Shown: positions 1,499 to 39,612 of the stretch, one piece after another
Layout of the letters: each line of letters opens with the position of its first letter
Position numbering within the stretch: position 1 is the stretch's first letter
Source of the DNA: a virus
Lineage: Duplodnaviria; Heunggongvirae; Uroviricota; Caudoviricetes
Length of the DNA stretch: 39,612 bases
Strand: one strand, 5' to 3'
IMG/VR virus record: IMGVR_UViG_3300022758_000169
Translations under genes and position numbers: made by a program
Notes under the pieces: generated by a model
What the model was told of the DNA's origin: nothing
The model's input: only the letters and a program-made list of their open reading frames with translations
The model's database searches: none

Positions 1499-1523
1499 CA
1501 CTTGATCACATTAGCACAAAATA

Positions 1524-1538
1524 TTACCTTTAAGGTAA
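1524..1538. promoter_or_regulatory. operator-like palindrome TTACCTTTAAGGTAA
   Basis: Perfect TTACC-N5-GGTAA about 20 bp upstream of the ORF at 1559; the same site and leader recur at 38586..38600. Confidence 0.5.
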
Positions 1539-1558
1539 TGTTATTGTGAGGAAAAGCA

Positions 1559-2086
1559 ATGGAAGTTTTCTTAATCATCGTCGGCATCGTGATTATTAAT
1601 TTTGTTTTTTTATTTATTGCAAAAAAACAAAAAAGTAACGATATGCATGTTTCTACAACTGATGATCTTACCTTTGTAGAGCATGCACTGAATGTATCAG
1701 GATATAAACTCACCCCATACGGAGCTGGTGTATCACTCATGTCTTTAAGTAACGGTTTTTCAAAAGAAGAAACATTTTCACATATAGCTTTGATGGCTCT
1801 TTCTCAACACGCCAAAGTCGCAGGTAGTGACGCAATTGAGCTTAGTAAAGTTAGCATTCGTGCGATGTCGATAGCTGAAAACTTAACTAAATTATTCAGG
1901 AAAGGTCTTATTCGATCAGAAATATATAAAAATGATTTGAATGCTATCATGGCTGTCAGCACAATTAATGAAAACCAAGAGGATTGGATTTCCATAGTTC
2001 TGGAAAGCAATAGCACATCTAACAAGGATACTATTGCTTTGCCGATAAGTGCAGAAGCTTCTTTAGAAGCCATAAACAGCCATTGA
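1559..2086 (+). CDS. membrane-anchored hypothetical protein (moron), AT-rich
   Basis: SD GAGGAAAA then ATG; N-terminus MEVFLIIVGIVIINFVFLFIA is a predicted TM helix; AT-rich codon usage; leader and first 13 nt of CDS shared with the gene at 37837..38565. Confidence 0.6.
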   Translation: MEVFLIIVGIVIINFVFLFIAKKQKSNDMHVSTTDDLTFVEHALNVSGYKLTPYGAGVSLMSLSNGFSKEETFSHIALMALSQHAKVAGSDAIELSKVSIRAMSIAENLTKLFRKGLIRSEIYKNDLNAIMAVSTINENQEDWISIVLESNSTSNKDTIALPISAEASLEAINSH

Positions 2087-2107
2087 AAGAACTCCAATAA
2101 ATATTGA

Positions 2108-4771
2108 TTAACGCATCACCGGATCCACTTGGTTTATTAGTGGCGCAATCCAGAACAGGTTATTGCCGGGTATCAGGGTTCGGACATTATGCACAATACG
2201 ATCACCGGCATCACCATTCAACACTCCTGAGGTCACATCAATGATGCTATCCGCAAGACCAAATGACGGTCCGAATAGAGATCCTACGAATCCACGACTG
2301 GCATACCTGGACTGTGTGCCAGTGCCAAATAAAGCCCCCAGCCCAACAGCACCACCAGTCGCCTTTTCAGCCATGTTGTTATATTCCATCAATGGCCCAA
2401 GAATACCGGATCTATCTATACCCTCAAGCACCAGCTTCTCTGGTGACCAGTCAACATTTTTCCCTTTCGATGCTTCTTTAAGCGCATAGACCAGTGAGCC
2501 AAGAGCAATCTGAAATGCAGTGCCATAATAAAATTGCGCAGTTCCTTCCTGTAACCCACCAAGTAGCGCACGGTTGTATGAAGCCGTTGTGAATGATTTA
2601 AACTGAAATATCGTTCGCCCCATTGGAGTACTCGCCCATAAAGGTGTGTCACCAATACCGGGGGTGATGATAGTGTTATTAACGTCTTTCAGAACCGCTG
2701 ACTGGAATACTCCGGCAACGTACTGATCGTCCCATTTATCAAAGTTACCAATGTGCCATCCATCAATTACCTCACCATGTTTCTCGAACTCACTGCGAAT
2801 ACGCGCAGCCATATTGTCGTTGATACCGAGTTTTGCCATGCGACGTGCAGAAAACGCACCGGACAAAATACCGTCTGACGTGAGCATTCCGTTCATGGAT
2901 TTGTTTATGTCATTAAATCGATCCATGAGTGTCAGCTTGCCGAAGGCATCAGTAATTCGCTCCATTCCTGCTTCGACTGCTGTTGTCCTGGAAGAACTGT
3001 CAACAAGATCACCAATTGCACGAGAACGTGAATGTAGTACAGCTTCCAATCCAATCCCCATCTTCAACATATCTTCTTTGCTGGCCTTAAATGCCGGTGA
3101 TTGGGATATCTGAGAAGCATAGCCTTTCATGGTGTTACGGAAACCATTAACCATAACCCCTCTGGCCAGATCTGGAATAGCTGATACTGTCATTCCACCG
3201 AGTTTGGTCGTGAAGTTCACATCCCGCAGAAAAGCGCCAGCACGAACAAAAAACGAAGACGGATCATCAGGCATCCCATATGTACCAACAAGACGATCGC
3301 GTAATGCTGTTATGTCTCTGAGATCATTTGCTCTTGATTTTGAAAGTCTGGACTGTTCTTTCCGTAATTCCTTTTCGTACTTTCGCATTAATGAATCGAG
3401 TTTACCCTGAGGAACAACTTCACCATTGCTCTCATAACGTGCTTTCAGATTTGCCACACTTTCGTCATATTTCGCCTTTATTTTTTCAGGCACTTCCCGT
3501 AACAGACTGTCATATTCGTCCTCAATTAATTGCAGACGCTCTGTCATAGTTCGTTTGCCAAATGTTCTCGTCAACTCAATTTCTGCTGCCGCTTCACGGA
3601 TATGACGTTGTAGAACGTAATTCACATCACTTTCGAGATAATCCCTGATAAGACTATCAGGCACATTTAATGTTCTTTCTTTCGTACTACCTGCGGCTTT
3701 TACAGAAAATACGCTGACAAAATCCTGTGGAACCTTAGCACCAGTAATTTTATTAATTACGATATCCGCTGCAATTTCAGCATCCTCAGGATCCAGTGTT
3801 TTATTGCCTCTCGACCACCAGTCAACCAAAATACGTCGAAATTTATCGCGTTCACTGATTATTTTTCCAACTTTATATATACGTGGGAAATAGCTTGCCT
3901 GGCCTAATGCTTTCAGTTCTTCATCTGGAGGCAATAAACCAAGCTTTTGCATTTCAACCTTCACCCGATTTAATACAGTTCGCATCGCCTGCGCCGTTTC
4001 CTGAACAACAGGATTAGCATGCACATCACCGCTTCGCATAGCATTCCCAACCTGCTGACGAAATGAATCAAAACTCATGTCACCACCATCAGCTTTATAC
4101 TTTGCGTATGCCTGTTTATTTCCGACAACAACAGCAGCTTCTTCACGCTGCCATCCACGTGTACGGGTTTCTACAGCTACCGGTGTTTCAATCCCCCTTT
4201 CATTTCCTTTAAGGGTGAAATTATTTTCGGCTAACTCCAGCGTTGTTTTTCGCACTGTCTTGGACGGAGACTCCATTAACCTTGTCAAAGGAGTAAGATA
4301 GCTCCCTGCTTTCCATGCAGCCTTTCCAACCACCCCACCGGAAACAGGGGTTAAATCATCCAGAGTCGCTGTATCAATTTTCATAGCACCAACACTACCA
4401 CCATCAGAAAGCGAAGCGGCAGCCCTGTCAGTCGCTGATGTAATGCTCATATTATCAAGAGCATCAGCAACCTCACGCGTGGCTGCAGCCCGGACGGATG
4501 GCGAAAGCGCAACACCAGCACTGGCAAACACGCCGCTCATCATCGCACCCGCTGCAATGTGAGCGGCACTTTCACCCCATGAGCGTGTTATTTGCTGATT
4601 ATTCAGCACAACCTCGCTTAATGCTGTACCGGCTGCACCAATCGCAATCTGTGAGCCAATACGCGCCAGTGCCCCTCCTTGAGCACCGGGGATAAACATT
4701 GACGCAACAGTAACCGGATCCATTCCCGCAGCAATACTGGCAAGGGTTCCAACTACGCCAGCATCAGACAA
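2108..4771 (-). CDS. large internal virion / ejection protein (887 aa)
   Basis: Long ORF at the distal end of the virion operon, Gly/Ala-rich N-terminus; position analogous to T7-like internal core proteins. Confidence 0.55.
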   Translation of the reverse strand: MSDAGVVGTLASIAAGMDPVTVASMFIPGAQGGALARIGSQIAIGAAGTALSEVVLNNQQITRSWGESAAHIAAGAMMSGVFASAGVALSPSVRAAATREVADALDNMSITSATDRAAASLSDGGSVGAMKIDTATLDDLTPVSGGVVGKAAWKAGSYLTPLTRLMESPSKTVRKTTLELAENNFTLKGNERGIETPVAVETRTRGWQREEAAVVVGNKQAYAKYKADGGDMSFDSFRQQVGNAMRSGDVHANPVVQETAQAMRTVLNRVKVEMQKLGLLPPDEELKALGQASYFPRIYKVGKIISERDKFRRILVDWWSRGNKTLDPEDAEIAADIVINKITGAKVPQDFVSVFSVKAAGSTKERTLNVPDSLIRDYLESDVNYVLQRHIREAAAEIELTRTFGKRTMTERLQLIEDEYDSLLREVPEKIKAKYDESVANLKARYESNGEVVPQGKLDSLMRKYEKELRKEQSRLSKSRANDLRDITALRDRLVGTYGMPDDPSSFFVRAGAFLRDVNFTTKLGGMTVSAIPDLARGVMVNGFRNTMKGYASQISQSPAFKASKEDMLKMGIGLEAVLHSRSRAIGDLVDSSSRTTAVEAGMERITDAFGKLTLMDRFNDINKSMNGMLTSDGILSGAFSARRMAKLGINDNMAARIRSEFEKHGEVIDGWHIGNFDKWDDQYVAGVFQSAVLKDVNNTIITPGIGDTPLWASTPMGRTIFQFKSFTTASYNRALLGGLQEGTAQFYYGTAFQIALGSLVYALKEASKGKNVDWSPEKLVLEGIDRSGILGPLMEYNNMAEKATGGAVGLGALFGTGTQSRYASRGFVGSLFGPSFGLADSIIDVTSGVLNGDAGDRIVHNVRTLIPGNNLFWIAPLINQVDPVMR

Positions 4772-4797
4772 TAAACGTCTGTCTTCATTTTCATCAT

Positions 4798-5127
4798 CTA
4801 TCTGCTGCTTAATCCACGCCGTTTCCTCTGGCGATCGGGAATCTGCAAATTTCGCCCCCAGTATTCATAACCGTGCAACTCATTTTTATCAGCATATGGG
4901 TTATAACCTTCGACCGGTTCAAACTGTCTGGCAGGACGGAAAAAACCAGCCAGAATATTGTTCTGTCGTATTGCTGCGGCAAGCAATGAAGGCTCTTTGG
5001 GACGAGGTTCAGGGTTCTTACCTTCTGGCGGATGCACATCAAAACTCTGTTCATCAGGTTCAGGAATGGCGAGACCAGCAGAAATAAATCCGTTATTGTT
5101 TGATTCAGATACAGGATAGAACGGCAT
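4798..5127 (-). CDS. small virion-operon protein, translationally coupled
   Basis: ATG overlaps the upstream stop in TAATG at 5129..5125; 109-aa Pro-rich ORF. Confidence 0.4.
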   Translation of the reverse strand: MPFYPVSESNNNGFISAGLAIPEPDEQSFDVHPPEGKNPEPRPKEPSLLAAAIRQNNILAGFFRPARQFEPVEGYNPYADKNELHGYEYWGRNLQIPDRQRKRRGLSSR

Positions 5128-7835
5128 TATTTAGATCCCCACGAAAAGTAATCTTTAAATTTGTCCATACGTTCGTTATGCAGGCGCTGATACTGCTCAT
5201 CCAGAGCGCGATGCTTGTCTTTGAAGTTTCGTATAGCCTGTCCACGCATAATTTCTTCCTGCTCGTGCTGCTCCCGTTCCTGCTGCATTTTCTTATAAGG
5301 TTCCCAATCTTCTAGTGATGGCCCCCAGCGCATCTGTCTTCCATGCTTGTCATAAAATAAATCATCCCTCGTAATACCATCTTTATCTTTTGTTCTGATC
5401 ACAACTGAATAAAGCTTATCTCTCGGAGTTGATAAGTCAGGAACGAGAATCAACTCACCTCCAACCAGTGAGCGTGGCTTATTCAGTCCCAATGCACCAG
5501 CCTCAGTTGAAGGTCGGTTAAATGAAGGAGCCGGTTTATGTAAGTCATCGCCATACATGATTTTTTCTTTTTCAGCCTTCCATTGCGCTGCAATCCAGCC
5601 TGACGGCCCATATTGATAAAGCGCCTCCGGTGCATATTTCATAAACTGTGCTTCCCCGTTGACCTCGCTGATACTCCAAGTGCGGGCTATCTGCTGGTTG
5701 GTCATTTGCTTCGCTACGTCAGCGTTACCACCAGCAAGGCGATAGTTAACGTCATACAGCATCTGATAGTCATTGCGAAAGAGCGCTGCTTCCGGTGTCT
5801 GGTCATCCGCAGACGGATCCCAGCGAAGCCAGTGAGTCATATTACTGACAGCAGAATTGGCTGCGCTGTCACGCTCTTTTTTGTATTCTCTTGTACTCTG
5901 AACAGATGAGAGCTGCGCCCTTAGTGCATCTGTCTGGTTGTATGTCTTACTCTGCGCTTCCACAATAGCAGCATCTGAAGACATCCCTGCATCAGTTAGT
6001 TGCTTAACAGTCAGATAAAAACCCTGCATATCCTTCGGCATATTTCCAATAGATGCATTGTCTGTTTCATATAACCGACTAAACAGTTCCGCCGCATTTT
6101 TAACCACTTCCTGATTGCTGGATCGGGATACTGCTGAAAGCTGCGTGATGACCTGCGAAGGCATTATGCCAGTCTGAGCCACAAGCCGAACAACCCCATC
6201 ATGAGTGGAGGCATCATTAATACGAAAGTTCTGCGCCATTTCTGTGTAATCAGCAGCTTTCTGCATTGACTTGTTGCTTGGGTCTAATTTTTCACCTATT
6301 GTCAGCGCCTCATTAAATCTGCGTGAATCCCGTTGCGCCTGAATTGCTTCATTTGATCTCTGAAGCAATGCAGACAATTTTCCGTAAGCATCGAGTTTTA
6401 ACGCATAGTGAGGATCGTTAACCTCAGGCTTCACTTTCTGCATTTCTTCTTGCTGCTGAGAAGGAGGCAAATACTGAATTGTCTGGAATATTCTCGCGTT
6501 ATCAATCGCTATATCCAGTTGATTGATTATTTTATCTGCGTTTTTTCCATACCCCCTGATGATGGTCTCCTGAGCCGGTATATAATCTGGAACCTCACCG
6601 TTATATAGCTGGGCCATGGTGTTATTAATAGCTGGCTCAAGCTGTTCTAATATTAACTTCCTTTGCTTTTCTATCTGACTATTAGCAAGGTTATCTATTT
6701 GATAAATAGTCAGCGGATCCATTCCAGTTTTATTTTTTCTATATCGGGAAAGCCACCCTTGTGTTTCTGATGGAAGATTTCGGATAAATTCTTCTTCTGA
6801 TATTTCACCTTTACGTGGATCACCGACTTTGGCGATCAGTTTATCCACGTTACCCATCCCCCAGTTATATGCTGCTCCGGTCAATATTTCGGAACCGTAC
6901 TTACCATACAGTTGATTTACATAGTCACTGGCGAGCATTTCATGCTGTTGTTCGTCCGTAGGGTTGTATTCAACGCCACGTTTGGCCGCCAGTTCTTTCC
7001 CTGTGCCCGGCATTAACTGGTATTTCCCCTGGGCCCTCTCTCCAGAAGATGTTTTCGGTCCTTCAAGAATACTACCATCAGGATTAAAATGACGATCACC
7101 TGATTCAACAAGGCGTATGGCACGCATGTCCATGCCTCCAGAATCATTTTTCTGAAACTGACCATTTAACCATCCTTCCGGATTAGCAGCGGCATAATTC
7201 TTCGCCCGCATTTCTGTGGCACTGCGATCATCACTTTCTATTTCTTCCAGAATGCGTTCTTGTGACCATCCCCTGGCTGCTCCATATCTGGCAATGGCTA
7301 CCATTCTGGAATTTCTGGCTAAAGTGGCAGTTTGCGGGTCATTCCAGGCATCCGCTTCATTTTGTATCCATAATTTTCTCGTTGCCTGATATTGCTCATC
7401 TTCATAGGCATTTGTCTGCCCTATCTCATGTCTGAGAACTCCAGTACTGAACTGAATTTTCTGTGTTCTGGCTTGTTGCAAAAACATATTTCTTGCTGCT
7501 TCATCAGTCAATGAAGCAGCTATTTCTTCCACATCCTGATCAAATCCAGATATGTACTCTTGCCCCTTACCAATCGCATTTTTGCCTTGTTGTGCATAAA
7601 AACCGGTTTGAGGGTTATAAAGACGTTCATTGCTGCGCTGATTAAGCTGAAGGATGGCATCCTGAGACAATGCAACATTCGCTTTCTGCCTGGCTTCACC
7701 ATATGCCACCGCATACTGATCTGCGACATTCGCCAGCACCTGACCTGCCTGAGGAACATCGAAGGTTTGAAAACCACCGGTTTGCACACCACGACTTTGC
7801 ACCTGGCGTCCGGATGTAGTAGGAACAACAGGCAT
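5127..7835 (-). CDS. internal virion protein with lytic transglycosylase (SLT-like) motif
   Basis: 902-aa ORF; motif GERAQGKYQLMPGTGKELAA...AAYNWGMGNV resembles the SLT catalytic region. Confidence 0.7.
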   Translation of the reverse strand: MPVVPTTSGRQVQSRGVQTGGFQTFDVPQAGQVLANVADQYAVAYGEARQKANVALSQDAILQLNQRSNERLYNPQTGFYAQQGKNAIGKGQEYISGFDQDVEEIAASLTDEAARNMFLQQARTQKIQFSTGVLRHEIGQTNAYEDEQYQATRKLWIQNEADAWNDPQTATLARNSRMVAIARYGAARGWSQERILEEIESDDRSATEMRAKNYAAANPEGWLNGQFQKNDSGGMDMRAIRLVESGDRHFNPDGSILEGPKTSSGERAQGKYQLMPGTGKELAAKRGVEYNPTDEQQHEMLASDYVNQLYGKYGSEILTGAAYNWGMGNVDKLIAKVGDPRKGEISEEEFIRNLPSETQGWLSRYRKNKTGMDPLTIYQIDNLANSQIEKQRKLILEQLEPAINNTMAQLYNGEVPDYIPAQETIIRGYGKNADKIINQLDIAIDNARIFQTIQYLPPSQQQEEMQKVKPEVNDPHYALKLDAYGKLSALLQRSNEAIQAQRDSRRFNEALTIGEKLDPSNKSMQKAADYTEMAQNFRINDASTHDGVVRLVAQTGIMPSQVITQLSAVSRSSNQEVVKNAAELFSRLYETDNASIGNMPKDMQGFYLTVKQLTDAGMSSDAAIVEAQSKTYNQTDALRAQLSSVQSTREYKKERDSAANSAVSNMTHWLRWDPSADDQTPEAALFRNDYQMLYDVNYRLAGGNADVAKQMTNQQIARTWSISEVNGEAQFMKYAPEALYQYGPSGWIAAQWKAEKEKIMYGDDLHKPAPSFNRPSTEAGALGLNKPRSLVGGELILVPDLSTPRDKLYSVVIRTKDKDGITRDDLFYDKHGRQMRWGPSLEDWEPYKKMQQEREQHEQEEIMRGQAIRNFKDKHRALDEQYQRLHNERMDKFKDYFSWGSK

Positions 7836-8194
7836 CAGTAACCTCCTATTTTGAATCGGGAGTCAGAATTCATAAAACCTGAGTTAGATAACATTGGCGT
7901 TCCACCACCAGATGCACTTCCTTTAGAGAACGGACTCCACGTCCCACCAAACATCTGGTACGCACCGTATGCCTTCAGAGGCGCAGTGAGCAATGTTGTT
8001 GCTGCTCCCACATTCCCCTGTTTACGGGCTGAACTGGCTTCTGCTTTATAGTTGGCAGCCTGAACCTGATAACCGTAAGCCTCGCGTTGCGCGTTATTCA
8101 CCGTCGTCAGCGAATCAAGAGCGCCAAACTGAGCAGTGTCACCAAATATATCCAGCGCGTTACCTGTAGATAAATCGGCGCCGGTCGCCCCCAT
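7835..8194 (-). CDS. virion-operon protein; possibly the C-terminal part of a frameshifted gene
   Basis: 119-aa ORF; its frame stays open upstream to about 8272 and overlaps a 47-aa ORF (8265..8408) that starts in TAATG after the upstream gene. Confidence 0.4.
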   Translation of the reverse strand: MGATGADLSTGNALDIFGDTAQFGALDSLTTVNNAQREAYGYQVQAANYKAEASSARKQGNVGAATTLLTAPLKAYGAYQMFGGTWSPFSKGSASGGGTPMLSNSGFMNSDSRFKIGGY

Positions 8195-17159: not shown

Positions 17160-17236
17160 GTGGCATTAGCTCAGTTGGACAGAGCAACCGCCTTCTAAGC
17201 GGTTGGTCGCAGGTTCGAATCCTGCATGCCACGCCA
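17160..17236 (+). tRNA. tRNA-Arg (anticodon UCU), phage-encoded
   Basis: Manual cloverleaf: acceptor GTGGCAT/ATGCCAC, D-stem GCTC/GAGC, anticodon stem ACCGC/GCGGT with loop CTTCTAA, T-arm GCAGG-TTCGAAT-CCTGC, discriminator G, encoded CCA. Confidence 0.85.
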
Positions 17237-29319: not shown

Positions 29320-29564
29320 AGCAGATTATGGTTGCACACAACGGCGTCAGGTTTGAAGTCGTCATGGTTTTGACTAAGTTCCACAATGATGAGGTATTGC
29401 ACAGAAAAGAAACTGTAACTTACCGTTATAAACACCGCAGTTCAGCTGTTAGAAAATTACGGAAGATTGCGGAAGAACTAAAAAATGATCCTCATCGTGT
29501 TATTGAGGTAAAAGGCAACCCATATAAAATCAAAACTTCAGTGGAGCTAAGACATATGCAATAA
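29316..29564 (+). CDS. hypothetical protein
   Basis: ATGA overlap with the methyltransferase stop; 82-aa ORF. Confidence 0.45.
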   Translation: MKQIMVAHNGVRFEVVMVLTKFHNDEVLHRKETVTYRYKHRSSAVRKLRKIAEELKNDPHRVIEVKGNPYKIKTSVELRHMQ

Positions 29565-29888
29565 AATCACGCCTGACGAATCGCGATTATCTCGCTATTG
29601 GTATTGCAGAGATTGCTGGACTCAATGGCGCATGATTTGACAATGCCGCCAGAGCTATCGCATACTGACCGCACTAGAAAACAAACAGCGGTCATCCGCA
29701 CCCGATAGCTTTGCGGCTTTTTTATGCCTGCAATCTGGCATAGTCACATCCGTACAAAGGTCGGGTGGAGAGGCGTAATACAACACCCGAAAGGGGAATA
29801 TGCCCGGAGCTACTGTTTGTGCTCTAGTTGACACCCGATCACCAGCTACTAACTGGTTTTCGTAACTAAAAACAAACAGGAGGTCATC

Positions 29889-30545
29889 ATGACCAGTCAA
29901 CTCATCCCCGTATTCAACGGCACTATATCTAACGAAACAGCCCTACTTTGTAATGCCCGCGATCTGCACGCTTTTTTAGGTGTTAAAAAGGTGTTTGCAG
30001 CATGGATTACAAATCGCATATCAGAATACGAATTCATTGAAAATCAAGACTATATTTTGCTTTCCAATTTGGGAAAGCAAACATCTGGTAGAGGCGGCCA
30101 CAACCGCAAAGAGTACCACCTCACCCTTGATACAGCCAAAGAGCTGGCGATGGTCGAGCGTAACGAAAAAGGTCGCCAGGTGCGACGCTACTTCATTGAA
30201 TGCGAGAAACGTTTAAGACAACAAGAAACAAAAGTGGAGAAGGTCTTGTCAGGCTTCATGCCCGCCATTATGGAGGCGATCAAGCTGGAAGACAAAAAAG
30301 AATACAGTGCCCCACTGAAGCCCGGCTACCGCAGCCTGATTCACTCGCCGTCTGGTGTTCTCGGCCTGACGGAGCACTCACTGCTGATGAATCTGCTGAA
30401 CCAGTTACAGGACGACGGGCACGACGTATCGGGCGCGGCGGCGGAGCTGACCACCATGTTCTGCTACATCGTCGGTGTGAGCAAATGCCTGCGTGATATC
30501 CAGACTCACGCGGAGTACATCAACGACAAGGCAGGGTTCTTCTGA
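29889..30545 (+). CDS. antirepressor (AntA/KilA-N-like N-terminal domain plus shared C-terminal module)
   Basis: Strong SD AGGAGG; C-terminal 68 aa nearly identical at DNA level to the two terminal copies. Confidence 0.7.
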
Positions 30546-30578
30546 CAGAACGGCGGCACAGGGATGTGTCGGGCAAAA

Positions 30579-31829
30579 TTATTCCCCCGCTATCCACTTC
30601 TCAAACTTCGACGGGGAGAACGGAATCAGATCTGTATGCTCCCCGTTAATCCAGGAATCAATCATATCGGCCCACTGCTGCAACATGTAGGCGCGCTGTC
30701 TGGCGTATTCCGCTTTGTTATATACGGCGCGCACACCTTTCTGCTCATGTGCCAGAGCCTTTTCAATCCAGTCTGAAGGATAACCAGCCTCATGCAACAA
30801 CGTACTGGCTGTACGGCGCATATCATGTACAGTGAAGTCCTGAATATGCTCACCATCTTCATTTATTATTTTCACCGTTCTGTCGATCAGAGAGTTCAGC
30901 GCGGCATTAGATAATGGCTTCCGGAAATTGTAACGACCAGGAACCAGATATTCACTTCCACCAGCGCACATCTGCAACCCGACCAATATATCCTGTGCCT
31001 GTTTAGGCAGGTAAATAACGTGCGCCCGGCTTCCCTTCATGCGGTCTGGAGGAATTGTCCATGTCCATTTTTTAAAATCTATTTCATCCCACGTTGCATT
31101 GGTGAATTCGCCCTTACGAACCATAGTGATAAGCACCAGTTTTAAAGCCATTTTCATAGTGCCCATAGCACCAATGGCATCCAGCGTACGGAAGAACAGG
31201 CCAATTTCTTCTGGTGTCAGTGTTCGCTCTCGTGGTTTAAATATGGCGATAGACGAAGGTTTAATGTCAGCCGCAGGATTAAACAAACCATGACCACGGT
31301 CATTGGCGTGACGGTATACGCTGCTGATGATCTCCCTTGCCTGTACTGCTGTTGCCCGACCACCGCGTTCGACAATCCGGTCACACAAATCACGAACCAT
31401 CGATGTGGTAATTTCAGCCATCATTTTGTTGCCAAGAACCGGAAGTATGTCACGGTCGATCACTGCCTGCTTCATTGCGCGGGTACTTTCAGCCAGGATG
31501 ACGTGTTTCATATAACTGTCGGTATGTACCGCAAACGTCTCGGCACCACGAATCTTTTTGATACCGTCACGTTTAGCCGCAGCCGGCGACTGGCCTGCTT
31601 TAAGCAGCTTCTTTGCAGCAATCAGTTCTTCTCGCGCTTCTGCCAGGCTGATACCGTCACGCCCATACTGCCCGATTACCAGTGTTTCGCGGCGACCGTT
31701 GATACGGTAGTCATAGCGAAACGAGGCCGTGCCTGACGTAAGCACAGCTACATACAGCCCGTCACGATCGGAGACCTTGTACAGTTTGTCCTGCGGCTTG
31801 AGGTTTTTTAATTTTGTATCGGTAAGCAC
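30579..31829 (-). CDS. int: tyrosine integrase
   Basis: 416-aa ORF; N-terminus MLTDTKLKNLKPQDKLYKVSDRDGLY; catalytic motifs HDMRRT and AVYNKAEY near the C-terminus; apparent GTG start. Confidence 0.85.
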   Translation of the reverse strand: MLTDTKLKNLKPQDKLYKVSDRDGLYVAVLTSGTASFRYDYRINGRRETLVIGQYGRDGISLAEAREELIAAKKLLKAGQSPAAAKRDGIKKIRGAETFAVHTDSYMKHVILAESTRAMKQAVIDRDILPVLGNKMMAEITTSMVRDLCDRIVERGGRATAVQAREIISSVYRHANDRGHGLFNPAADIKPSSIAIFKPRERTLTPEEIGLFFRTLDAIGAMGTMKMALKLVLITMVRKGEFTNATWDEIDFKKWTWTIPPDRMKGSRAHVIYLPKQAQDILVGLQMCAGGSEYLVPGRYNFRKPLSNAALNSLIDRTVKIINEDGEHIQDFTVHDMRRTASTLLHEAGYPSDWIEKALAHEQKGVRAVYNKAEYARQRAYMLQQWADMIDSWINGEHTDLIPFSPSKFEKWIAGE

Positions 31830-33936: not shown

Positions 33937-34217
33937 ACTTTCTCCTGTTTACTATCTATAAGCCAGTCAATTATTGATGACTAACCCCGCATAGTAAACC
34001 ATATATGAATCATTATTGTTCCATATCATATATCTCAATAAAAGTACTAATGATTTTACAGAACGAGCCAGCAGAGTGGGGGCAGTTGTACAGGAACCAT
34101 AGACTTAATTTTGTATTTAATAATGCTATGGTGTAATAAACCTGAACATGTATTTAAAATACGTACTGATTCATGATAGAATTCAAAGATAACTTTTCAC
34201 CAACTCCGTTTTTGATA

Positions 34218-34244
34218 CCCGCAATATTTTGCGGGCTTTTTTTT
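34218..34244 (+). terminator. plus-strand intrinsic terminator with no annotated upstream plus-strand gene
   Basis: CCCGCAA-uauu-UUGCGGG followed by U8; overlaps the tailspike stop codon on the other strand. Confidence 0.45.
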
Positions 34245-37200
34245 AACGTTCTTCCAGAGACTGAACCCGCTCTTTTATCTTATCCATTTCTCTGCGCTGC
34301 CATGCTGCCTCGATATAGAATAAGAGATCAGGTCTGACCCCCCATCTAGATCCTGCTGGCGTTATTTCAACGCGCTCAATGATGTCTTCTATTACCATCA
34401 CTGGATTATCATCCTCATCAACAATGATGCTCCCGTCATTATCAGTCAGCGGCATTTCCCTTTGGCCAGTAATGACGTCATCATATACTGCGGGATAATC
34501 GTCATAGCAAAGAAAGGCATAGCGGCATGTTGTGCTTTCTTCTTCCATGAGTCCGTGAGAAATAAGAACATCACGAAGTTGCTGCGCGATTACACCATGA
34601 TGTATCCTCGCCCCTTCTTCCCCCTTTATAGCGACAGCGTTCAGCCATTTATAAGCGATATACCTGACGTCACCCCAGGCATCCAGCAATGCTTCGTCAG
34701 GAGAGACCGGCTCTGTCTTTAATGTTCCGTCACTGGTAACCACAGGATTGGAGCCAAGATAAACTGTCGAGAACCTGTTTCCCGGACCACCAAGAGCATT
34801 TACATTATCAAGATAAGGTTTAACATCTCCGTTCTCAAAAAGATGTTCGAGTGCGTTATATACCGCGCGACGTGGAGTACTGCTTCCGGAACCATGCAAC
34901 GTTATCATTGCACCATCTGCTGAAGACGTTGTTTCACCGCCGCTAACGATTAATCTCTGAGCGGTAACATCATCAGACGGTACTTTCTTCGCAATAATGG
35001 CGTAATTACCCTCAAGTTTGACTTCCGCGCGAACTTGTCCTGATGTACCTGCATGGACAGTCAGTGACTGGACGGCAACATCATCTGTGAAATCAACGGG
35101 TACAGGAACCGTCCTCACGCCTGACGTCGACATAAAAGTAGGAAGCGTTCTGTTAGGAGTGGCTCCGTAGACAAAATCCCTTGAAACAAATTCTTCCTGT
35201 TTAATTTTCACCCTGAAACAATACAAATCAGCCGGGTGACCATCGTGAACATAAGGATATTTTCTGTTGTTATCCCCTATGCTCCATGGGTTTAGAAAGT
35301 CTTCCCCACCGAAAATGTAGTACAGCCAGTTGTCTTTGATACAAACTGAACCAACACCAACCGCAGAGTTAACTATTCCGCCCTGATAAATCTGATCAGT
35401 AACATTAACCCACTCTACATTATCCAGACTCCACTCATTGACGTTAACTCTGGTCATAAATGTTCTTGGATAATTTCCTGCATAACGGTTATCAGGTTCT
35501 CCTCCTTCCCACTCACCAAATGCGCGCTCACTGCCAAAAATAATCAGCTCATCGCCAACTTTGGCAAAAGGAAGGTTTGAGTGATGAACATTATTTGGGA
35601 AGCGAAGAGAATTCCATGATGTACCTAAATCAGAGCTTCTGTGCAATGAACTACCGGGTTGAGTACTTAATGTCCCCCTGGTCGTCAGATACAGAATGCC
35701 ATCATAATATTTTACACATGGCTCAGATGCATTCGCCTCATATTCTGCAGGTATGCGTCTGCGAACAAAGCTACCAGGAGAACCGAAAGCATCAGAGAAA
35801 TAGAGTATCCCAAGCTCGCGTGGACCAATATCACCATTATGGTAGCCAACAGCAAAACTGTTATCGCTAATCGTCGCAAAACTGTGAATCTCAGTAACAG
35901 GAGTGCTTCCGTCAACAAAAGAAGGAATAGTTCCAAGACTGGTTTTTCTCCATGGTGACGAGTGAAATGATGTACCAAAACTCCAGTATCTACCCTCGTT
36001 ATTCTGATCCACATCCTGGGTATTTTGCGTCGTAACTGTAAAAGTATTTTTATCAATAACAGTAGTCACCGTCATATTCCCGGTAACACCTGTAACACCA
36101 GAGTTTGAGAAGTTGACAAAATCACCAGCAAATAATCCGTGATCAGTAATGCGAATATAAGCGACTTGCTGATTTGCTGCTTTCGTTATACCACCATAAA
36201 CGCGAAGGCTGCGACTCATTGGGCGATCCCACAACTCTGCAACCTGCAGTTTATTTCCGCTCACGGTCCGCGTCTCAATTACAGCAAAAAGGCGATTTCT
36301 GACAACCCCCATACTCATGCAGTGATAGTTAACTGTGGGATAGTTTTCATGTAAATCTGTAAGCCATTCCGGCGTTGTCCAGGTCTTCCCGTCATCTCCT
36401 GAGCGAACCCATGCAACATGGAGGTTATTTACACCATGGCGGTCTCCAGCCATAAAAGGCGCATAGATGACATTGTCATATACAAACGTTTTATCCTGCG
36501 TCCAGGCGTTGTACCACGGTGTATCTGTAATTTTAAATAACTCTCCCTGGATAAAATCTTCAGAAGCATAAAAAAGAGGCTGACCCGGTATTCTCTCAAA
36601 TAAAAAACGAGCATTTTTAAATCGACTGACATCCGGAAGAGTTGATACTTTAAAAGTAAGCCCTAATCCGTCAATTTTATAACCTGGAGATGAGGCTTCA
36701 AGGCACGCGCTTATTGCAGTGGAATCGTCATTTATACCATCACCAACAGCTCCAAAATCTTTGGGGCTAATAGCATCACGCATTTTATCCTGGAACGTTC
36801 GGTACACAGCCCCAGAACCATACTGAATAAACCAACCAAAACCACCAACAACCCCGGCGATTGCAGCATCGACATAATTACGCATTGAGCGATTATTTAC
36901 AGCGTCCTGCTCAAATGATGGATCTGCAAGGTTAGAAATTTTGTTTTGCTTTGCATCGTAATATTTTGCAAGCAAAGATGGTTTCATCAATGCACGTCTG
37001 AACCACCCAAAACATTGCTGGATCAGCATCGTCAGGTAGTCAAAGGCATCTTCATGCACTTCGGGGAAAAATTTTCCCTGATTGCGAAGGTCTGTCTCCT
37101 GCACTACATCAAGCACACGATCTATCGTAATTCGCCATCCAGTAGCAAGCGGAGACGGAAGAACCACAGAACCGCCACTATAAGTGCCCGCCCCAGTTAC

Positions 37201-37362
37201 CGTATAACCGGTATCCAGAACCAATTCTGTTACGTTTCCGTTCAGGTCAGACACCTGAACAACCAGGTCTGATTTTCTGAAAATTCGAAAAGTATACGGA
37301 AACGATGTCGTAACGCCGTTACCGGTGTATTCGTTGTGGTCAACTTCGGTTGAGACCGTCAT
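34243..37362 (-). CDS. tailspike with Asp-box (BNR) motifs and C-terminal self-cleaving chaperone-like domain
   Basis: 1039 aa; N-terminus MTVSTEVDHNEYTGNGVTTSFPYTF; Asp-boxes SGDDGKTW and SDLGTSW; C-terminal VVTSDGTLK with the Ser codon at 34732..34734. Confidence 0.8.
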   Translation of the reverse strand: MTVSTEVDHNEYTGNGVTTSFPYTFRIFRKSDLVVQVSDLNGNVTELVLDTGYTVTGAGTYSGGSVVLPSPLATGWRITIDRVLDVVQETDLRNQGKFFPEVHEDAFDYLTMLIQQCFGWFRRALMKPSLLAKYYDAKQNKISNLADPSFEQDAVNNRSMRNYVDAAIAGVVGGFGWFIQYGSGAVYRTFQDKMRDAISPKDFGAVGDGINDDSTAISACLEASSPGYKIDGLGLTFKVSTLPDVSRFKNARFLFERIPGQPLFYASEDFIQGELFKITDTPWYNAWTQDKTFVYDNVIYAPFMAGDRHGVNNLHVAWVRSGDDGKTWTTPEWLTDLHENYPTVNYHCMSMGVVRNRLFAVIETRTVSGNKLQVAELWDRPMSRSLRVYGGITKAANQQVAYIRITDHGLFAGDFVNFSNSGVTGVTGNMTVTTVIDKNTFTVTTQNTQDVDQNNEGRYWSFGTSFHSSPWRKTSLGTIPSFVDGSTPVTEIHSFATISDNSFAVGYHNGDIGPRELGILYFSDAFGSPGSFVRRRIPAEYEANASEPCVKYYDGILYLTTRGTLSTQPGSSLHRSSDLGTSWNSLRFPNNVHHSNLPFAKVGDELIIFGSERAFGEWEGGEPDNRYAGNYPRTFMTRVNVNEWSLDNVEWVNVTDQIYQGGIVNSAVGVGSVCIKDNWLYYIFGGEDFLNPWSIGDNNRKYPYVHDGHPADLYCFRVKIKQEEFVSRDFVYGATPNRTLPTFMSTSGVRTVPVPVDFTDDVAVQSLTVHAGTSGQVRAEVKLEGNYAIIAKKVPSDDVTAQRLIVSGGETTSSADGAMITLHGSGSSTPRRAVYNALEHLFENGDVKPYLDNVNALGGPGNRFSTVYLGSNPVVTSDGTLKTEPVSPDEALLDAWGDVRYIAYKWLNAVAIKGEEGARIHHGVIAQQLRDVLISHGLMEEESTTCRYAFLCYDDYPAVYDDVITGQREMPLTDNDGSIIVDEDDNPVMVIEDIIERVEITPAGSRWGVRPDLLFYIEAAWQRREMDKIKERVQSLEER

Positions 37363-37466
37363 GTTAAATCTCCAGATAGTCGCAGCACCCGTTGCGCCGC
37401 ATATCTGGTTATTCTATTACCTGGAAAACCACATATGGATAGAAAGGCTGTAAATACGAATAGATA

Positions 37467-37481
37467 TTACCTTTCAGGTAA
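37467..37481. promoter_or_regulatory. operator-like palindrome TTACCTTTCAGGTAA
   Basis: In the divergent intergenic region between the tailspike start and the ORF at 37557. Confidence 0.5.
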
Positions 37482-37556
37482 TTTGCAAAACGTGCTGGAT
37501 AGCAAACAAATTATTTGATACTGTATAAATATCAGTTATTGCATGGAGAAGATAAG

Positions 37557-37814
37557 ATGCAGCAGTATCACTATCCACTGGAAGACGGATTTACCGAAAG
37601 GATTCACACGCCGGGAGGCGTCAGGTCACTGGTGGAGGGATCGCACTTGATGAAATTACTCCGGGATCTCGATAAGGATGGATTTAATGTCGATGGCCCA
37701 CTTGCCGAACTGACTGCACTGATTAACTACGTCACCAGCTCACAGATGTCTATGCAGGATCTGCAAACACATCTCGACTATTGTGCCGAACAATTACGAA
37801 AACAAACCCGGTAA
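37557..37814 (+). CDS. hypothetical protein (85 aa)
   Basis: SD GGAGAAG then ATG; convergent with the gene at 37837..38565. Confidence 0.45.
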   Translation: MQQYHYPLEDGFTERIHTPGGVRSLVEGSHLMKLLRDLDKDGFNVDGPLAELTALINYVTSSQMSMQDLQTHLDYCAEQLRKQTR

Positions 37815-37820
37815 ATTTAA

Positions 37821-37838
37821 AGGCCGCAAGAGCGGCCT
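37821..37838. terminator. hairpin between convergent genes
   Basis: AGGCCGC-aaga-GCGGCCT. Confidence 0.35.
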
Positions 37839-38565
37839 ATCGTTTCGCTTTGTGCTCGTCCCAGCACGTTTTGCACCATGCCATTAAGCCGTCCGCATTT
37901 TGATTATTAGGGTAAAAGCTGGTCCGTTTTCTGCGGACATTACAAATTGGGCACCACTTCATATGGCGTGTATTCTTTGGGCCATCGAGACACCTTGCAC
38001 ACCACTTAGTCAATCCATCTGGATTTTTTGACGATTTCCGGAATTTGTCATATGGAAGGTTTATTCTGCATCGCAAACACTGCTTGCGGCCACTTGAAAC
38101 TCTGTTAGCTGATTCTTCTTTTGGCGGCGATACAGAAGGTATTCTTGCTGGCTCTGATACTGCCTGAGGTGCTTTTTTAGATGACTGAGACGATATGTCA
38201 TCACCAGGGAATCTTCCATGATATGCCGGACGCGTTGACACTCCAGGTGGAAGCTCAGCTGTAAACGGCTTTGGCTGAATCAGTTGCCTCTCTTTTGCTA
38301 ACTCCTGCTGTTTATAATATGTCTGGATTACCGCACTATCATAAGCAGGAGGTACGGAAATATCAGGCGCGTTACCTCCAGTTTTTTGAAAATGAGTAGA
38401 TGTGTGTTCTATCACCTGTGTACGACTAATCGTTACCTCCCCATCTTCGGTCTTTATCGTTTTGTTCTGATTAACGACCGTACGATCAGAGATCTTAGTC
38501 TTGTTCTGGTTGATAACGTAAATAATCACCGCAACCACACCAACAACTATCCAGAAAACTTCCAT
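37837..38565 (-). CDS. membrane-anchored protein with C-terminal double Cys4 repeats (moron)
   Basis: N-terminus MEVFWIVVGVVAVIIYVI is a predicted TM helix; C-terminal repeats CLRC...WCARC and CPIC...WCKTC; promoter, leader and start shared with the ORF at 1559. Confidence 0.55.
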   Translation of the reverse strand: MEVFWIVVGVVAVIIYVINQNKTKISDRTVVNQNKTIKTEDGEVTISRTQVIEHTSTHFQKTGGNAPDISVPPAYDSAVIQTYYKQQELAKERQLIQPKPFTAELPPGVSTRPAYHGRFPGDDISSQSSKKAPQAVSEPARIPSVSPPKEESANRVSSGRKQCLRCRINLPYDKFRKSSKNPDGLTKWCARCLDGPKNTRHMKWCPICNVRRKRTSFYPNNQNADGLMAWCKTCWDEHKAKR

Positions 38566-38585
38566 TGCTTTTCCTCACAATAACA

Positions 38586-38600
38586 TTACCTTAAAGGTAA
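38586..38600. promoter_or_regulatory. operator-like palindrome TTACCTTAAAGGTAA
   Basis: Upstream of the minus-strand gene at 38565; mirror of the site at 1524..1538. Confidence 0.5.
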
Positions 38601-38678
38601 TATCTTGCTTTCAGGTGATCAAGCGTTAAACGCAATCAACCAAATACGGTTGATTTTAATATTTCTTCGCGTTTATCA

Positions 38679-38693: not shown

Positions 38694-38806
38694 ATTTACA
38701 TCGCACTCCTCTTGTGCCATAGTAATCGGGCACTGGCAAAATCCAGTGCCGGGATTGGTCTCCCGGATTACTACAGAGGCACATATGCCGCATAAGCGGT
38801 TTTTTT
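38686..38806 (+). ncRNA. candidate structured antisense small RNA (c4-like), copy B
   Basis: Predicted fold: outer stem 38713..38718/38778..38783, stem 38721..38727/38766..38772, hairpin 38729..38750, hairpin 38751..38764 with loop UUGGUC, then terminator hairpin plus U7 (38800..38806). Confidence 0.5.
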
Positions 38807-38960
38807 ATGTGTAAAGCGCACCTATTCTATGGTGGGCTGTGTGGGGGCACCGAAAGGTGCGCCGGGTTCCTTTGTAGCCGGTAAGACCAACTCTGCACAG
38901 TTCACCACCATCTGATTGGTCTCAGCGGTGGTGATTAACCTAACTACAAAGGTGATCGCC

Positions 38961-39612
38961 ATGAATACCAAACCTTCCATCTTTTCCTTTGAGTTATCCT
39001 GCCAGATCCGTATGTTCATGATTGACGGAGAACCTTGGTTTGTCACCAAAGATGTGTGCAATGCTTTGAATATTGATGTTACACAAGCGAGAAAACTTGA
39101 TAAAAAAGGGCTGGAACAAAAAGGGGGTCTGTATTCAATACAGACCCCTGGTGGAATACAAGAACTATCCATCGTTTCAGATCAGGTCTCTACATCCTTA
39201 TTCTGCGTTGCAAAGAGGCAATGACTGAGGGAACGAGAGCATTCAGATTTCTTGAATGGGTTACAGGTGAGGTTCTTCCTCAGATCCGCCGCACCGGAAG
39301 TTACATTAAAAACTCGCTCCCGCAGGAAGAACGCATAAAGATGGTTGCCGACCAGGTAGCCAACGCCACGGCGTCAGCAGTAATGCAGGCGATGAAGATA
39401 GAGAACAAAACCTACAGTGCCCCGCTGAAGCCCGGCTACCGCAGCCTGATTCATTCGCCGTCGGGTGTTCTCGGCCTGACGGAGCACTCACTGCTGATGA
39501 ATCTGCTGAACCAGTTACAGGACGACGGGCACGACGTATCGGGCGCGGCGGCGGAGCTGACCACCATGTTCTGCTACATCGTCGGTGTGAGCAAATGCCT
39601 GCGTGATATCCA
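38961..39612 (+). pseudogene. antirepressor (BRO-N plus shared C-terminal module), frame-disrupted by a 1-nt deletion near 39182; 3' end cut by window edge
   Basis: BRO-N frame (MNTKPSIFSF...) stops at 39224; homology continues in the +2 frame (SGLYILILRCKEAMTEGTRAFRFLEWVTGEV...); copy A has GAGTCAGGC where this copy has GATCAGGT. Confidence 0.55.
39256..39612. repeat. inverted repeat, right copy; a third direct copy of the last ~200 bp lies at 30302..30501
   Basis: Direct comparison with 1..357 and with 30302..30501 (about 3 mismatches over 200 bp). Confidence 0.9.

What the first reader, a model, noticed from the sequence alone, without database searches (positions are those of the whole stretch)
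34243..37362. Tailspike combines sialidase-type Asp-boxes with a C-terminal self-cleaving chaperone signature
The protein has two Asp-box motifs (SGDDGKTW, SDLGTSW) typical of sialidase-like beta-propellers. Its C-terminal 163 residues start at VVTSDGTLK, matching the serine-lysine autoproteolysis site of the intramolecular chaperone domain found in endosialidases and some tail fibres. It may be an endosialidase-like capsule depolymerase and so predict the host surface polysaccharide. The gene has its own operator-bearing promoter region, separate from the rest of the virion operon.
Basis: partly seen in the sequence, partly recalled or inferred. Interest (0 to 1): 0.55.

Follow-up and report, generated by a model that had tools for sequence, protein, structure and literature searches.

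The report
Known K1 endosialidase tailspike of prophage

Summary
It has all four endosialidase Pfam domains plus Peptidase_S74, and is about 70% identical by eye over aa 205-876 (phmmer E=0) to the crystallised phage K1F endosialidase. All five K1F catalytic residues and the Ser877/Lys882 self-cleavage pair are present. An MSA-based model finds endosialidase structures first. The protein is a mosaic. Residues 1-165 are the epsilon15-type virion-attachment domain. Residues ~232-1025 differ at only 5 positions from the experimentally verified endosialidase of prophage CUS-3. The whole gene is 99.8-99.9% identical to ORF7 of the published Uetakevirus vB_EcoP_ZX5, whose paper names the same three domains. 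It is equally close to prophage genes in 72 complete E. coli genomes, including strains I know to be K1, such as IHE3034 and APEC O1. So it is already known. The operator remark is partly right. A 17-bp palindrome upstream is the phage repressor's operator, found at 13 intergenic sites and annotated in epsilon15. However, it lies in a shared control region with a divergent antirepressor gene. A tailspike promoter is supported only by sequence conservation.

The parts
34243..37362 (-). Tailspike gene, 1039 aa (115.6 kDa precursor; predicted 97.0 kDa mature protein plus 18.6 kDa released domain)
   Evidence: ORF listing. 99.8% nt identity to ZX5 ORF7 and 99.8-99.9% to RefSeq 'endosialidase catalytic beta-propeller domain-containing protein' genes. 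3 aa differences from each of ZX5 and IHE3034. Masses.
36751..37362 (-). N-terminal virion-attachment (adaptor) module, aa 1-204, of the epsilon15/Uetakevirus type
   Evidence: aa 1-165 are 72% identical to epsilon15 gp20. aa 1-209 match PDB 28lx Dpo31 tailspike, E 1e-35. nt 1-582 are 98.5% identical to the otherwise different tailspike of phage EC.W1-9. Many prophage tailspikes with other catalytic domains share it.
36550..36750 (-). Endosialidase N-terminal extension (PF12218), aa 205-271; contains the 5' recombination junction with the CUS-3-type module at about aa 228-233
   Evidence: Pfam; windowed identity to CUS-3; megablast match to CUS-3 starts at nt 699.
35200..36549 (-). Six-bladed beta-propeller catalytic domain, aa 272-721, with Asp-boxes at 36379-36402 and 35614-35637 and catalytic residues H309, R515, E547, R562, R613
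   Evidence: PF12217, E 1.4e-233. Residue mapping to K1F H350/R549/E581/R596/R647. These residues are invariant in 17 homologues. Model pLDDT is mostly 75-96 over aa ~200-610, lower beyond.
35968..36216 (-). Beta-barrel domain inserted in the propeller, aa 383-465
   Evidence: PF12195, E 3e-46.
34735..35199 (-). Stalk (tail-spike) domain, aa 722-876, ending ...GSNPVVT
   Evidence: PF12219, E 8e-78; aligned to the end of the K1F crystal construct.
34246..34734 (-). C-terminal intramolecular chaperone domain (Peptidase S74), aa 877-1039; nucleophile Ser877 and Lys882 at 34717-34734
   Evidence: PF13884 41.4 bits against a 22-bit cut-off. PDB 3gw6, E 2e-93 for the full-length query and 1.6e-69 for the C-terminal fragment, with S877/K882 aligned to the mutated S911A and K916. 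S and K are conserved in 17 endosialidases and most S74 tailspikes.
37466..37482 (.). Repressor operator, perfect palindrome ATTACC-N5-GGTAAT, in the tailspike/ant intergenic region
   Evidence: 16 copies with <=2 mismatches against 1.2 expected. All 13 copies with <=1 mismatch are intergenic. The homologous site is annotated 'protein_bind: repressor' in the epsilon15 record. Conserved in 8 Uetakeviruses.
37411..37439 (-). Candidate tailspike promoter: TCCATA, 17 nt, TAGAAT, with an operator half-site GGTAAT abutting the -10
   Evidence: Weak by consensus (absent from the stricter scan). However, T1, A2, A4 and T6 of the -10 hexamer are invariant across 8 diverged phages, and most have TTCATA as the -35. 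Inference only.
37372..37408 (-). GC-rich stem-loop in the predicted 5' leader; its base pairs with the GG of the Shine-Dalgarno
   Evidence: RNA fold -20.9 kcal/mol, z -3.9. A comparable hairpin folds in all 8 relatives, with z from -1.4 to -4.4. RNAalifold supports only the invariant 4-bp core and shows no covariation.
37557..37814 (+). Divergent antirepressor gene (85 aa), with a degenerate SOS box at 37521-37535
   Evidence: 88% identical to SPC32H Ant; PDB 5d50_E, E 4e-47. The SOS box CTGT-N8-ACAG is intact in ZX5 but has a 1-nt deletion in the window.

Best explanation
The gene encodes the receptor-destroying tailspike of a temperate epsilon15-like podovirus (genus Uetakevirus) that infects K1-encapsulated E. 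coli. Residues 1-~200 anchor the trimer to the tail. Residues 205-876 form a GH58 endo-alpha-2,8-sialidase: an N-terminal cap, a six-bladed propeller with two Asp-boxes and an inserted beta-barrel, and a stalk. This enzyme binds and depolymerises the polysialic-acid capsule so the virion can reach the outer membrane. Residues 877-1039 are an intramolecular chaperone that drives trimer folding and then removes itself by Ser877/Lys882 autoproteolysis between Thr876 and Ser877. That leaves a 97-kDa mature spike and an 18.6-kDa fragment. The gene is a mosaic: a Uetakevirus attachment module joined, within the first ~30 residues of the endosialidase cap, to the catalytic-plus-chaperone module that is also found, nearly identical, in the P22-like K1 prophage CUS-3. 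Shown here: domain content, catalytic and cleavage residues, fold, mosaic junctions and near-identity to known genes. Inferred: enzymatic activity, cleavage, and transcription from a promoter of its own next to a repressor operator shared with the divergent antirepressor gene.
For: Pfam gives five endosialidase/S74 domains above threshold. PDB sequence search gives E=0 to K1F endoNF over aa 205-876, 1.6e-271 to the phi92 endosialidase, and 2e-93 to the K1F chaperone domain. Residues H309, R515, E547, R562 and R613 match K1F H350, R549, E581, R596 and R647, which PMC13564897 reports as catalytic and mutation-intolerant. These residues and S877/K882 are invariant in 17 homologues down to 53% identity. 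The Ser-Lys dyad mechanism is described in PMC3742443. The MSA-based AlphaFold model has pLDDT mostly 75-96 over aa ~200-610, and Foldseek ranks endoNF first (TM 0.75 by target length), then phi92 endoN, the chaperone domain, and GH33 sialidases. aa ~232-1025 differ at 5 residues from CUS-3 siaK1, whose record cites direct-assay evidence for endo-alpha-sialidase activity. aa 1-165 are 72% identical to epsilon15 gp20. The whole gene is 99.8% identical to that of phage vB_EcoP_ZX5, and the ZX5 paper describes the same three domains. 72 complete E. coli genomes carry the full gene, among them IHE3034 and APEC O1, which I know to be K1.
Against: No biochemical data exist for this exact protein. 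The stalk (aa 720-870) and the N-terminal module are modelled at low confidence, as expected for a monomer model of an intertwined trimer. The single-sequence model was uninformative, with pLDDT 32. NCBIfam has no model that matches. The ZX5 paper did not report the K type of its host or an activity assay for ORF7. No sigma-70 site upstream of the gene passes the standard consensus scan.
Confidence: 0.93

Rival explanations
1. The operator-bearing intergenic region controls only the divergent antirepressor gene. The tailspike has no promoter of its own and is transcribed by read-through from upstream (late-operon or moron transcripts), as gene 9 of P22 is read through the immI region.
For: The operator and an SOS box lie next to the ant gene, whose product is the SPC32H-type antirepressor. 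No consensus-grade sigma-70 site faces the tailspike. The 242-aa gene immediately upstream is on the same strand. The P22 precedent is from my own knowledge.
Against: The -10-like TAGAAT keeps exactly the positions expected of a -10 element (T1, A2, A4, T6) in 8 phages that are otherwise 72-75% identical here, and most have TTCATA 17 nt upstream. In epsilon15 a rho-independent terminator is annotated at the end of the late operon and the divergent gp19 lies in between. In the window, read-through would have to cross about 4.4 kb containing opposite-strand genes and a terminator-like hairpin at 37838-37821.
Confidence: 0.3
2. The enzyme is active but its natural substrate is not plain K1 polysialic acid. 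It could be, for example, the alternating alpha-2,8/2,9 K92 polymer or an O-acetylated form, so the host prediction 'K1' would be imprecise.
For: Specificity was not assayed here. Many hosts also carry CUS-3; from my own knowledge its neuO gene O-acetylates the K1 capsule. One search shows only the annotated neuO repeat region.
Against: There are only 5 substitutions relative to the CUS-3 enzyme across the catalytic and stalk parts, none at the catalytic residues. The genomes carrying the gene include strains I know to be K1, and several also hold the K1-associated prophage CUS-3.
Confidence: 0.05
3. The protein is a catalytically dead, binding-only polysialic-acid adhesin or a decaying prophage gene.
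For: The gene resides in prophages, where decay is common. No assay exists for this allele.
Against: The reading frame is intact. All catalytic and cleavage residues are conserved. There are 3 aa differences from the gene of ZX5, which forms infectious particles on its host.
Confidence: 0.02

Closest known systems
ORF7 tail protein of Escherichia phage vB_EcoP_ZX5 (MW722083; Li et al. 2022, PMC9782041), with the RefSeq prophage proteins such as WP_000218919.1 of E. coli IHE3034
   Same: The gene, its length and its neighbours (ant upstream; holins, endolysin and spanin downstream) are the same. Nucleotide identity is 99.8-99.9%, with 3 aa differences. The paper already names the three domains.
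   Different: Only point substitutions within the gene. Around it, the window has a different moron (the 242-aa Cys-rich membrane protein) and a 1-nt deletion in the ant SOS box.
CUS-3 endosialidase tailspike SiaK1 (CP000711, ABQ88383; P22-like Lederbergvirus prophage of E. coli K1 RS218)
   Same: Catalytic propeller, barrel, stalk and chaperone domain: aa ~232-1025 differ at 5 residues, and the DNA is 99.6% identical. The record carries direct-assay evidence for activity.
   Different: The N-terminal module is the P22 head-binding domain (PF09008) rather than the epsilon15 type. The last ~14 residues differ. Downstream lies neuO in CUS-3 and the lysis cassette here.
Endosialidase NF of coliphage K1F (PDB 1V0E, 3GVL, 3JU4; chaperone domain 3GW6), glycoside hydrolase family 58
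   Same: Same domain order, both Asp-boxes, catalytic H/R/E/R/R, the GSNPxVT|S cleavage site and the Ser-Lys dyad. About 70% identity by eye over 672 residues (phmmer E=0).
   Different: K1F has a T7 gp17-type N-terminal domain. The window protein has a 7-residue insertion (FVDGSTP, about aa 482-488) in a propeller loop.
Epsilon15 gp20 tailspike and its upstream control region (AY150271)
   Same: The N-terminal 165 aa are 72% identical. The gp19(ant)/tailspike intergenic layout is the same, with the same 17-bp repressor site, the -10-like TAGAAT and the leader hairpin.
   Different: The receptor-binding part of epsilon15 gp20 is unrelated and acts on Salmonella O-antigen.
Rep/Ant lysis-lysogeny switch of Salmonella phage SPC32H (PDB 5D50)
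   Same: The window's repressor (E 4.5e-42) and its 85-aa antirepressor (88% identity) are homologues, and ant lies divergent from the tailspike in both.
   Different: This concerns the neighbour and the shared control region, not the tailspike protein. The window's SOS box carries a 1-nt deletion.

Membership tests
Phage endosialidase (endo-N-acetylneuraminidase, GH58) | Six-bladed beta-propeller catalytic domain carrying two Asp-boxes | tested here: met
   PF12217 774.9 bits against a 24-bit cut-off. Two strict Asp-boxes against 0.0014 expected. The model's top fold matches are endoNF and phi92 endoN.
Phage endosialidase (endo-N-acetylneuraminidase, GH58) | Active-site residues equivalent to K1F H350, R549, E581, R596 and R647 | tested here: met
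   H309, R515, E547, R562 and R613 are aligned and present, and invariant in 17 homologues. The residue list comes from PMC13564897.
Phage endosialidase (endo-N-acetylneuraminidase, GH58) | Beta-barrel domain inserted in the propeller, followed by the stalk domain | tested here: met
   PF12195 (aa 383-465) and PF12219 (aa 722-876) are above cut-off. The stalk is only poorly modelled as a monomer.
Phage endosialidase (endo-N-acetylneuraminidase, GH58) | [quoted passage not shown] | not testable with these tools
   Inferred from 5 aa differences to CUS-3 SiaK1, whose record carries direct-assay evidence.
Peptidase S74 / C-terminal intramolecular chaperone domain | Domain profile match immediately after the stalk | tested here: met
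   PF13884 41.4 bits against a 22-bit cut-off at aa 877-937. 3gw6, E 2e-93 for the full-length query and 1.6e-69 for the C-terminal fragment, extending to the C-terminus.
Peptidase S74 / C-terminal intramolecular chaperone domain | Serine nucleophile at the scissile bond with a lysine five residues downstream | tested here: met
   S877 and K882 align with K1F position 911 (Ala in the 3gw6 mutant) and K916. They are conserved in the alignment. The dyad role is described in PMC3742443.
Peptidase S74 / C-terminal intramolecular chaperone domain | Autoproteolytic release after trimer assembly | not testable with these tools
   Prediction: the 115.6-kDa precursor gives 97.0 kDa plus 18.6 kDa.
Uetakevirus (epsilon15-like) tailspike | Conserved N-terminal tail-attachment domain and gene position between ant and the lysis cassette | tested here: met
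   72% identity to epsilon15 gp20 over aa 1-165. The window is collinear with ZX5 over most of its length. The same layout occurs in epsilon15, SPC32H and phiV10.
Rep operator of epsilon15/SPC32H-type phages | 17-bp palindrome ATTACC-N5-GGTAAT recurring at regulatory regions, including both sides of the repressor gene | tested here: met
   annotation in epsilon15. Binding by the repressor was not tested here.

The most novel reading that the evidence does not exclude
The tailspike gene, and perhaps the lysis cassette behind it, would be a separate transcription unit wired directly to the Rep/Ant/LexA switch. The wiring would run through one Rep operator, an IHF site and a half-site over the -10, shared with the divergent SOS-controlled antirepressor gene. 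Endosialidase synthesis would then be released by repressor inactivation itself rather than by the late-gene programme. In this genome the 1-nt deletion in the ant SOS box would make that release LexA-independent.
Probability: 0.3. Interest if true: 0.35.

Novelty: already known. Interest (0 to 1): 0.12.

Why it matters
The gene identifies the phage's receptor as the K1 polysialic-acid capsule, a virulence factor of neonatal-meningitis, urinary and avian pathogenic E. coli. That is useful for host prediction and as a source of capsule-stripping enzyme. All of this is already established for CUS-3, K1F and ZX5. The modest added value is descriptive. The same catalytic-plus-chaperone cassette sits on two unrelated podovirus chassis that co-reside in the same K1 strains. 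The crossover lies inside the conserved cap of the enzyme. The tailspike also shares its control region with the antirepressor gene.

Tried and rejected
- **Single-sequence AlphaFold model:** pLDDT was 32, which is uninformative and not evidence against the fold. It was replaced by a 36-sequence MSA model.
- **NCBIfam scan:** no family matched.
- **Generic BNR_2 sialidase profile:** it scored below its cut-off (17 against 31 bits), so the protein is not filed under GH33 exosialidases. Those appear only as distant fold matches.
- **Shared late-promoter motif:** I compared the regions upstream of terS, the tailspike, the holin, the integrase and the 242-aa gene. Only the repressor palindrome recurred.
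- **Consensus sigma-70 scan:** it gave nothing facing the tailspike in 37363-37556. A relaxed scan gave only TCCATA-17-TAGAAT.
- **Covariation test of the leader hairpin:** only an invariant 4-bp core was supported, with no compensatory pairs, so the long stem rests on individual folds.
- **Hairpin after the stop codon as a tailspike terminator:** rejected. The T-run is on the plus strand, so it terminates antisense transcription, not the tailspike.
- **Primary papers:** those on SPC32H (PMC3807360), epsilon15 (PMC2698709) and endoNF processing (PMC2666599) are not held in the library.
Full report
**Observation**

The minus-strand ORF 34243-37362 encodes 1039 aa. It contains SGDDGKTW at aa 321-328. 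Both fit the strict Asp-box S-x-D-x-G-x-[TS]-W, and 0.0014 such matches are expected by chance in a protein of this composition. VVTSDGTLK is at aa 874-882. The 163 C-terminal residues start at Ser877, so VVT belongs to the mature part.

**What the protein is**

Pfam places five domains in endosialidase order, all far above their curated cut-offs:

| Domain | Residues | Note |
|---|---|---|
| End_N_terminal | 205-271 | |
| End_beta_propel | 272-721 | E 1.4e-233 |
| End_beta_barrel | 383-465 | inserted in the propeller |
| End_tail_spike | 722-876 | |
| Peptidase_S74 | 877-937 | |

The generic BNR_2 profile stays below threshold, so this is the phage GH58 type and not a GH33 exosialidase.

Against PDB sequences, aa 205-876 align end to end with the K1F endosialidase (1V0E/3GVL, E=0) and with the phi92 endosialidase (E 1.6e-271). 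aa 757-1038 align with the K1F intramolecular chaperone construct 3GW6 (E 2e-93).

I checked the chain numbering through the R647A mutant 3GVJ. With it, K1F H350, R549, E581, R596 and R647 correspond to H309, R515, E547, R562 and R613 here, and all are present. A deep mutational scan of the K1F spike lists exactly these residues as catalytic and intolerant to change (PMC13564897).

The cleavage site aligns as ...GSNPVVT|SDGTLK against K1F ...GSNPIVT|(S911A)NGERK. That puts Ser877 and Lys882 on the K1F Ser911/Lys916 pair. The Ser-Lys dyad mechanism is summarised in PMC3742443.

In an alignment of 17 endosialidase homologues down to 53% identity, all seven residues are invariant.

**Fold**

A single-sequence AlphaFold run was useless, with pLDDT 32. 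With a 36-sequence alignment, pLDDT is mostly 75-96 over aa ~200-610 and 72-91 over most of the chaperone domain. The N-terminal module and the trimer-dependent stalk stay low.

Foldseek against the PDB ranks the matches in this order:
- endoNF entries first (E 3e-81, TM 0.75 by target length);
- then the phi92 endosialidase;
- then the chaperone domain;
- then trans-sialidases and NanA-type sialidases.

**Mosaic origin**

Megablast finds the whole gene at 99.8% identity in phage vB_EcoP_ZX5 and in two unannotated Phi05 contigs. nt 699-3091 match the CUS-3 endosialidase gene siaK1 at 99.6%. nt 1-582 match the otherwise different tailspike of phage EC.W1-9 at 98.5%.

At protein level the picture is:
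- aa ~232-1025 differ from CUS-3 SiaK1 at five positions (A266V, G826R, T866I, A891T, I991M);
- aa 192-231 are only loosely similar;
- the N-termini are unrelated;
- the last ~14 residues diverge.

The CUS-3 record carries direct-assay evidence for endo-alpha-sialidase activity. aa 1-165 are 72% identical to the N-terminus of the epsilon15 tailspike gp20. The same N-terminal module heads many E. coli prophage tailspikes that have pectate-lyase-like, peptidase G2 or esterase bodies.

The protein is thus a Uetakevirus attachment module joined to the CUS-3-type catalytic-plus-chaperone cassette. The crossover lies inside the cap domain, next to the GDG-x-x-DD motif that many tailspike types share (weak PF12708 and P22/Sf6 tailspike hits at aa 185-228). 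Modular exchange of tailspike bodies in these genera has been described (PMC10408124, listed, not read).

**Genome context**

The window is collinear with ZX5 (39,565 bp, genus Uetakevirus) at 98-99% identity over most of its length. It differs in 953-7928, 29320-30579 and 37815-38672.

On the minus strand the order is: virion genes from terS (~19965) down to 2108; a regulatory and accessory block; the tailspike; two holin-like genes; a GH19 endolysin; a DUF2514 spanin-like gene; and the integrase. In E. coli IHE3034 the same tailspike-plus-lysis block ends the prophage next to yfgI. This fits the guaA integration reported for ZX5.

72 of 5,426 complete E. coli genomes hold the full gene, annotated by RefSeq as an endosialidase catalytic beta-propeller domain-containing protein. 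The list includes IHE3034, APEC O1 and APEC O18, which I know to be K1 strains. At least IHE3034, APEC O18, EC69, N1, N21 and N54 also carry the CUS-3-type tailspike elsewhere on the chromosome. The two chassis with near-identical cassettes therefore co-reside.

**Prior description**

The ZX5 paper states that ORF7 has an N-terminal T7-like tail-fibre domain, a central endosialidase-like part and a C-terminal intramolecular chaperone of endosialidase. It also links the protein to K1 polysialic acid (PMC9782041). The window protein differs from ZX5 ORF7 at three residues and from the IHE3034 protein at three residues. The finding is therefore already known, both as a family and as this very gene.

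**The operator and promoter remark**

The 194-nt region between the tailspike start (37362) and a divergent 85-aa gene (37557-37814) holds a perfect palindrome ATTACCTTTCAGGTAAT at 37466-37482. The pattern ATTACC-N5-GGTAAT occurs 16 times with at most two mismatches, against 1.2 expected.

All 13 copies with at most one mismatch are intergenic:
- on both sides of the repressor gene 25083-25667;
- just before terS;
- in the early-right region;
- before the two isrK/C4 modules and the two small membrane-protein genes.

A further copy with two mismatches lies before the integrase gene (31871).

ZX5 has the same set. The epsilon15 GenBank record annotates the homologous 17-mer, ATTACCTGTAAGGTAAT, as a repressor binding site, with an IHF site beside it. 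The record also annotates a rho-independent terminator closing the late operon upstream. The window's repressor matches the SPC32H Rep structure 5D50 chain A (E 4.5e-42). The operator is therefore real.

It is not private to the tailspike, however. The divergent gene is 88% identical to the SPC32H antirepressor Ant (5D50 chain E, E 4e-47). An SOS-box-like CTGT-N8-ACAG sits just before that gene in seven related phages and in ZX5.

An alignment of eight Uetakeviruses from Escherichia, Salmonella, Enterobacter and Klebsiella shows four conserved blocks in this region:
- the SOS box;
- the operator;
- GGTAATAGAAT;
- a GC-rich core followed by GGAG.

Within TAGAAT, positions 1, 2, 4 and 6 are invariant. 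Most phages have TTCATA 17 nt upstream, where the window has TCCATA. This is the conservation pattern of a real but weak sigma-70 promoter with an operator half-site abutting its -10. By consensus alone it does not pass the standard scan.

The predicted leader forms a stable hairpin (-20.9 kcal/mol, z -3.9) whose base includes the GG of the Shine-Dalgarno. Comparable hairpins fold in all eight phages, but alignment folding supports only the invariant core.

I conclude that the region is a divergent ant/tailspike control region bearing one Rep operator. An independent tailspike promoter is likely but inferred. I give read-through transcription a probability of about 0.3.

**Verdict**

The host prediction (K1 polysialic acid) is well founded by near-identity to an assayed enzyme and by the strains that carry the gene. 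The gene and its domain reading are already published and annotated. Interest is low; what remains is descriptive detail about module exchange and the shared control region.

Noticed in passing
window 37521-37535 (compare L001/ZX5 2368-2383): The SOS (LexA) box in front of the SPC32H-type antirepressor gene is CTGTATATTTATACAG in ZX5 and CTGT-N8-ACAG in seven related phages. The window has lost one T (CTG-ATATTTATACAG), so the half-sites are 9 rather than 10 nt apart. LexA control of ant may be weakened or lost in this genome, or this may be a sequencing error.
   Followed up: partly
window 937, 1523, 16822, 19967, 19985, 22659, 22721, 25011, 25723, 25785, 37466, 38585, 38678 (17-mers starting there): The repressor palindrome ATTACC-N5-GGTAAT is scattered over 13 intergenic sites. 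Two tandem copies directly abut the terS start. Further copies precede both isrK/C4 modules and two small membrane-protein genes, and a two-mismatch copy lies before the integrase (31871). This is a P1-like dispersed-operator layout. I did not find it described in the ZX5 paper.
   Followed up: partly
window 717-901 (-) and 38730-38912 (+); ends 1-431 and 39182-39612: Two isrK + C4-antisense-RNA + BRO-N antirepressor modules lie in inverted orientation at the two ends of the window. Both ends stop at the same homologous position of the ant gene, about 43 nt before its stop in ZX5. The arms are 92% complementary. The right-hand copy has a frame break after about 87 codons. This looks like a contig broken at a convergent repeat, so the true junction is missing.
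   Followed up: partly
window 37837-38565 (-), with 1559-2086 (+): The accessory-gene slot between the isrK module and ant holds a 242-aa protein with an N-terminal transmembrane helix and C-terminal Cys-rich repeats (weak endonuclease VII / Lar-like zinc-ribbon hits; phrog_6762, function unknown). It is preceded by a perfect repressor operator. The IHE3034 prophage has a YafO toxin pair in this slot. A 175-aa gene at 1559 shares the same promoter/operator and first ~30 residues.
   Followed up: partly
window 34153-34244 (+): A promoter-like site (TTTAAA/TAGAAT with TG) is followed about 35 nt later by a strong plus-strand terminator (CCCGCAATATTTTGCGGG + T8). It is antisense to the last codons of the tailspike gene. 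This may give a ~50-nt antisense transcript, or the hairpin may only stop antisense transcription entering the tailspike gene. There is no Rfam match.
   Followed up: no
window 953-7928: The distal virion genes, an 887-aa internal-virion-protein-like gene and a 902-aa gene with an SLT lytic transglycosylase domain, are not similar at DNA level to the corresponding ZX5 genes. The rest of the structural operon is 98-99% identical. This looks like a second module swap in the ejection-protein region.
   Followed up: no
E. coli IHE3034 NC_017628.1 2717383-2718053 and 2884245-2887364 (also APEC O18, EC69, N1, N21, N54): The same strains carry both the P22-like CUS-3 tailspike and this Uetakevirus tailspike, about 167 kb apart in IHE3034. 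Their catalytic cassettes are 99.6% identical. Co-residence gives an obvious opportunity for exchange between the two prophages.
   Followed up: partly
window 17160-17236 (+) and 29759-29848 (+): A tRNA-Arg(TCT) lies between the portal and terminase regions on the opposite strand. An Rfam sRNA-Xcc1 match lies near the attP/integrase end.
   Followed up: no
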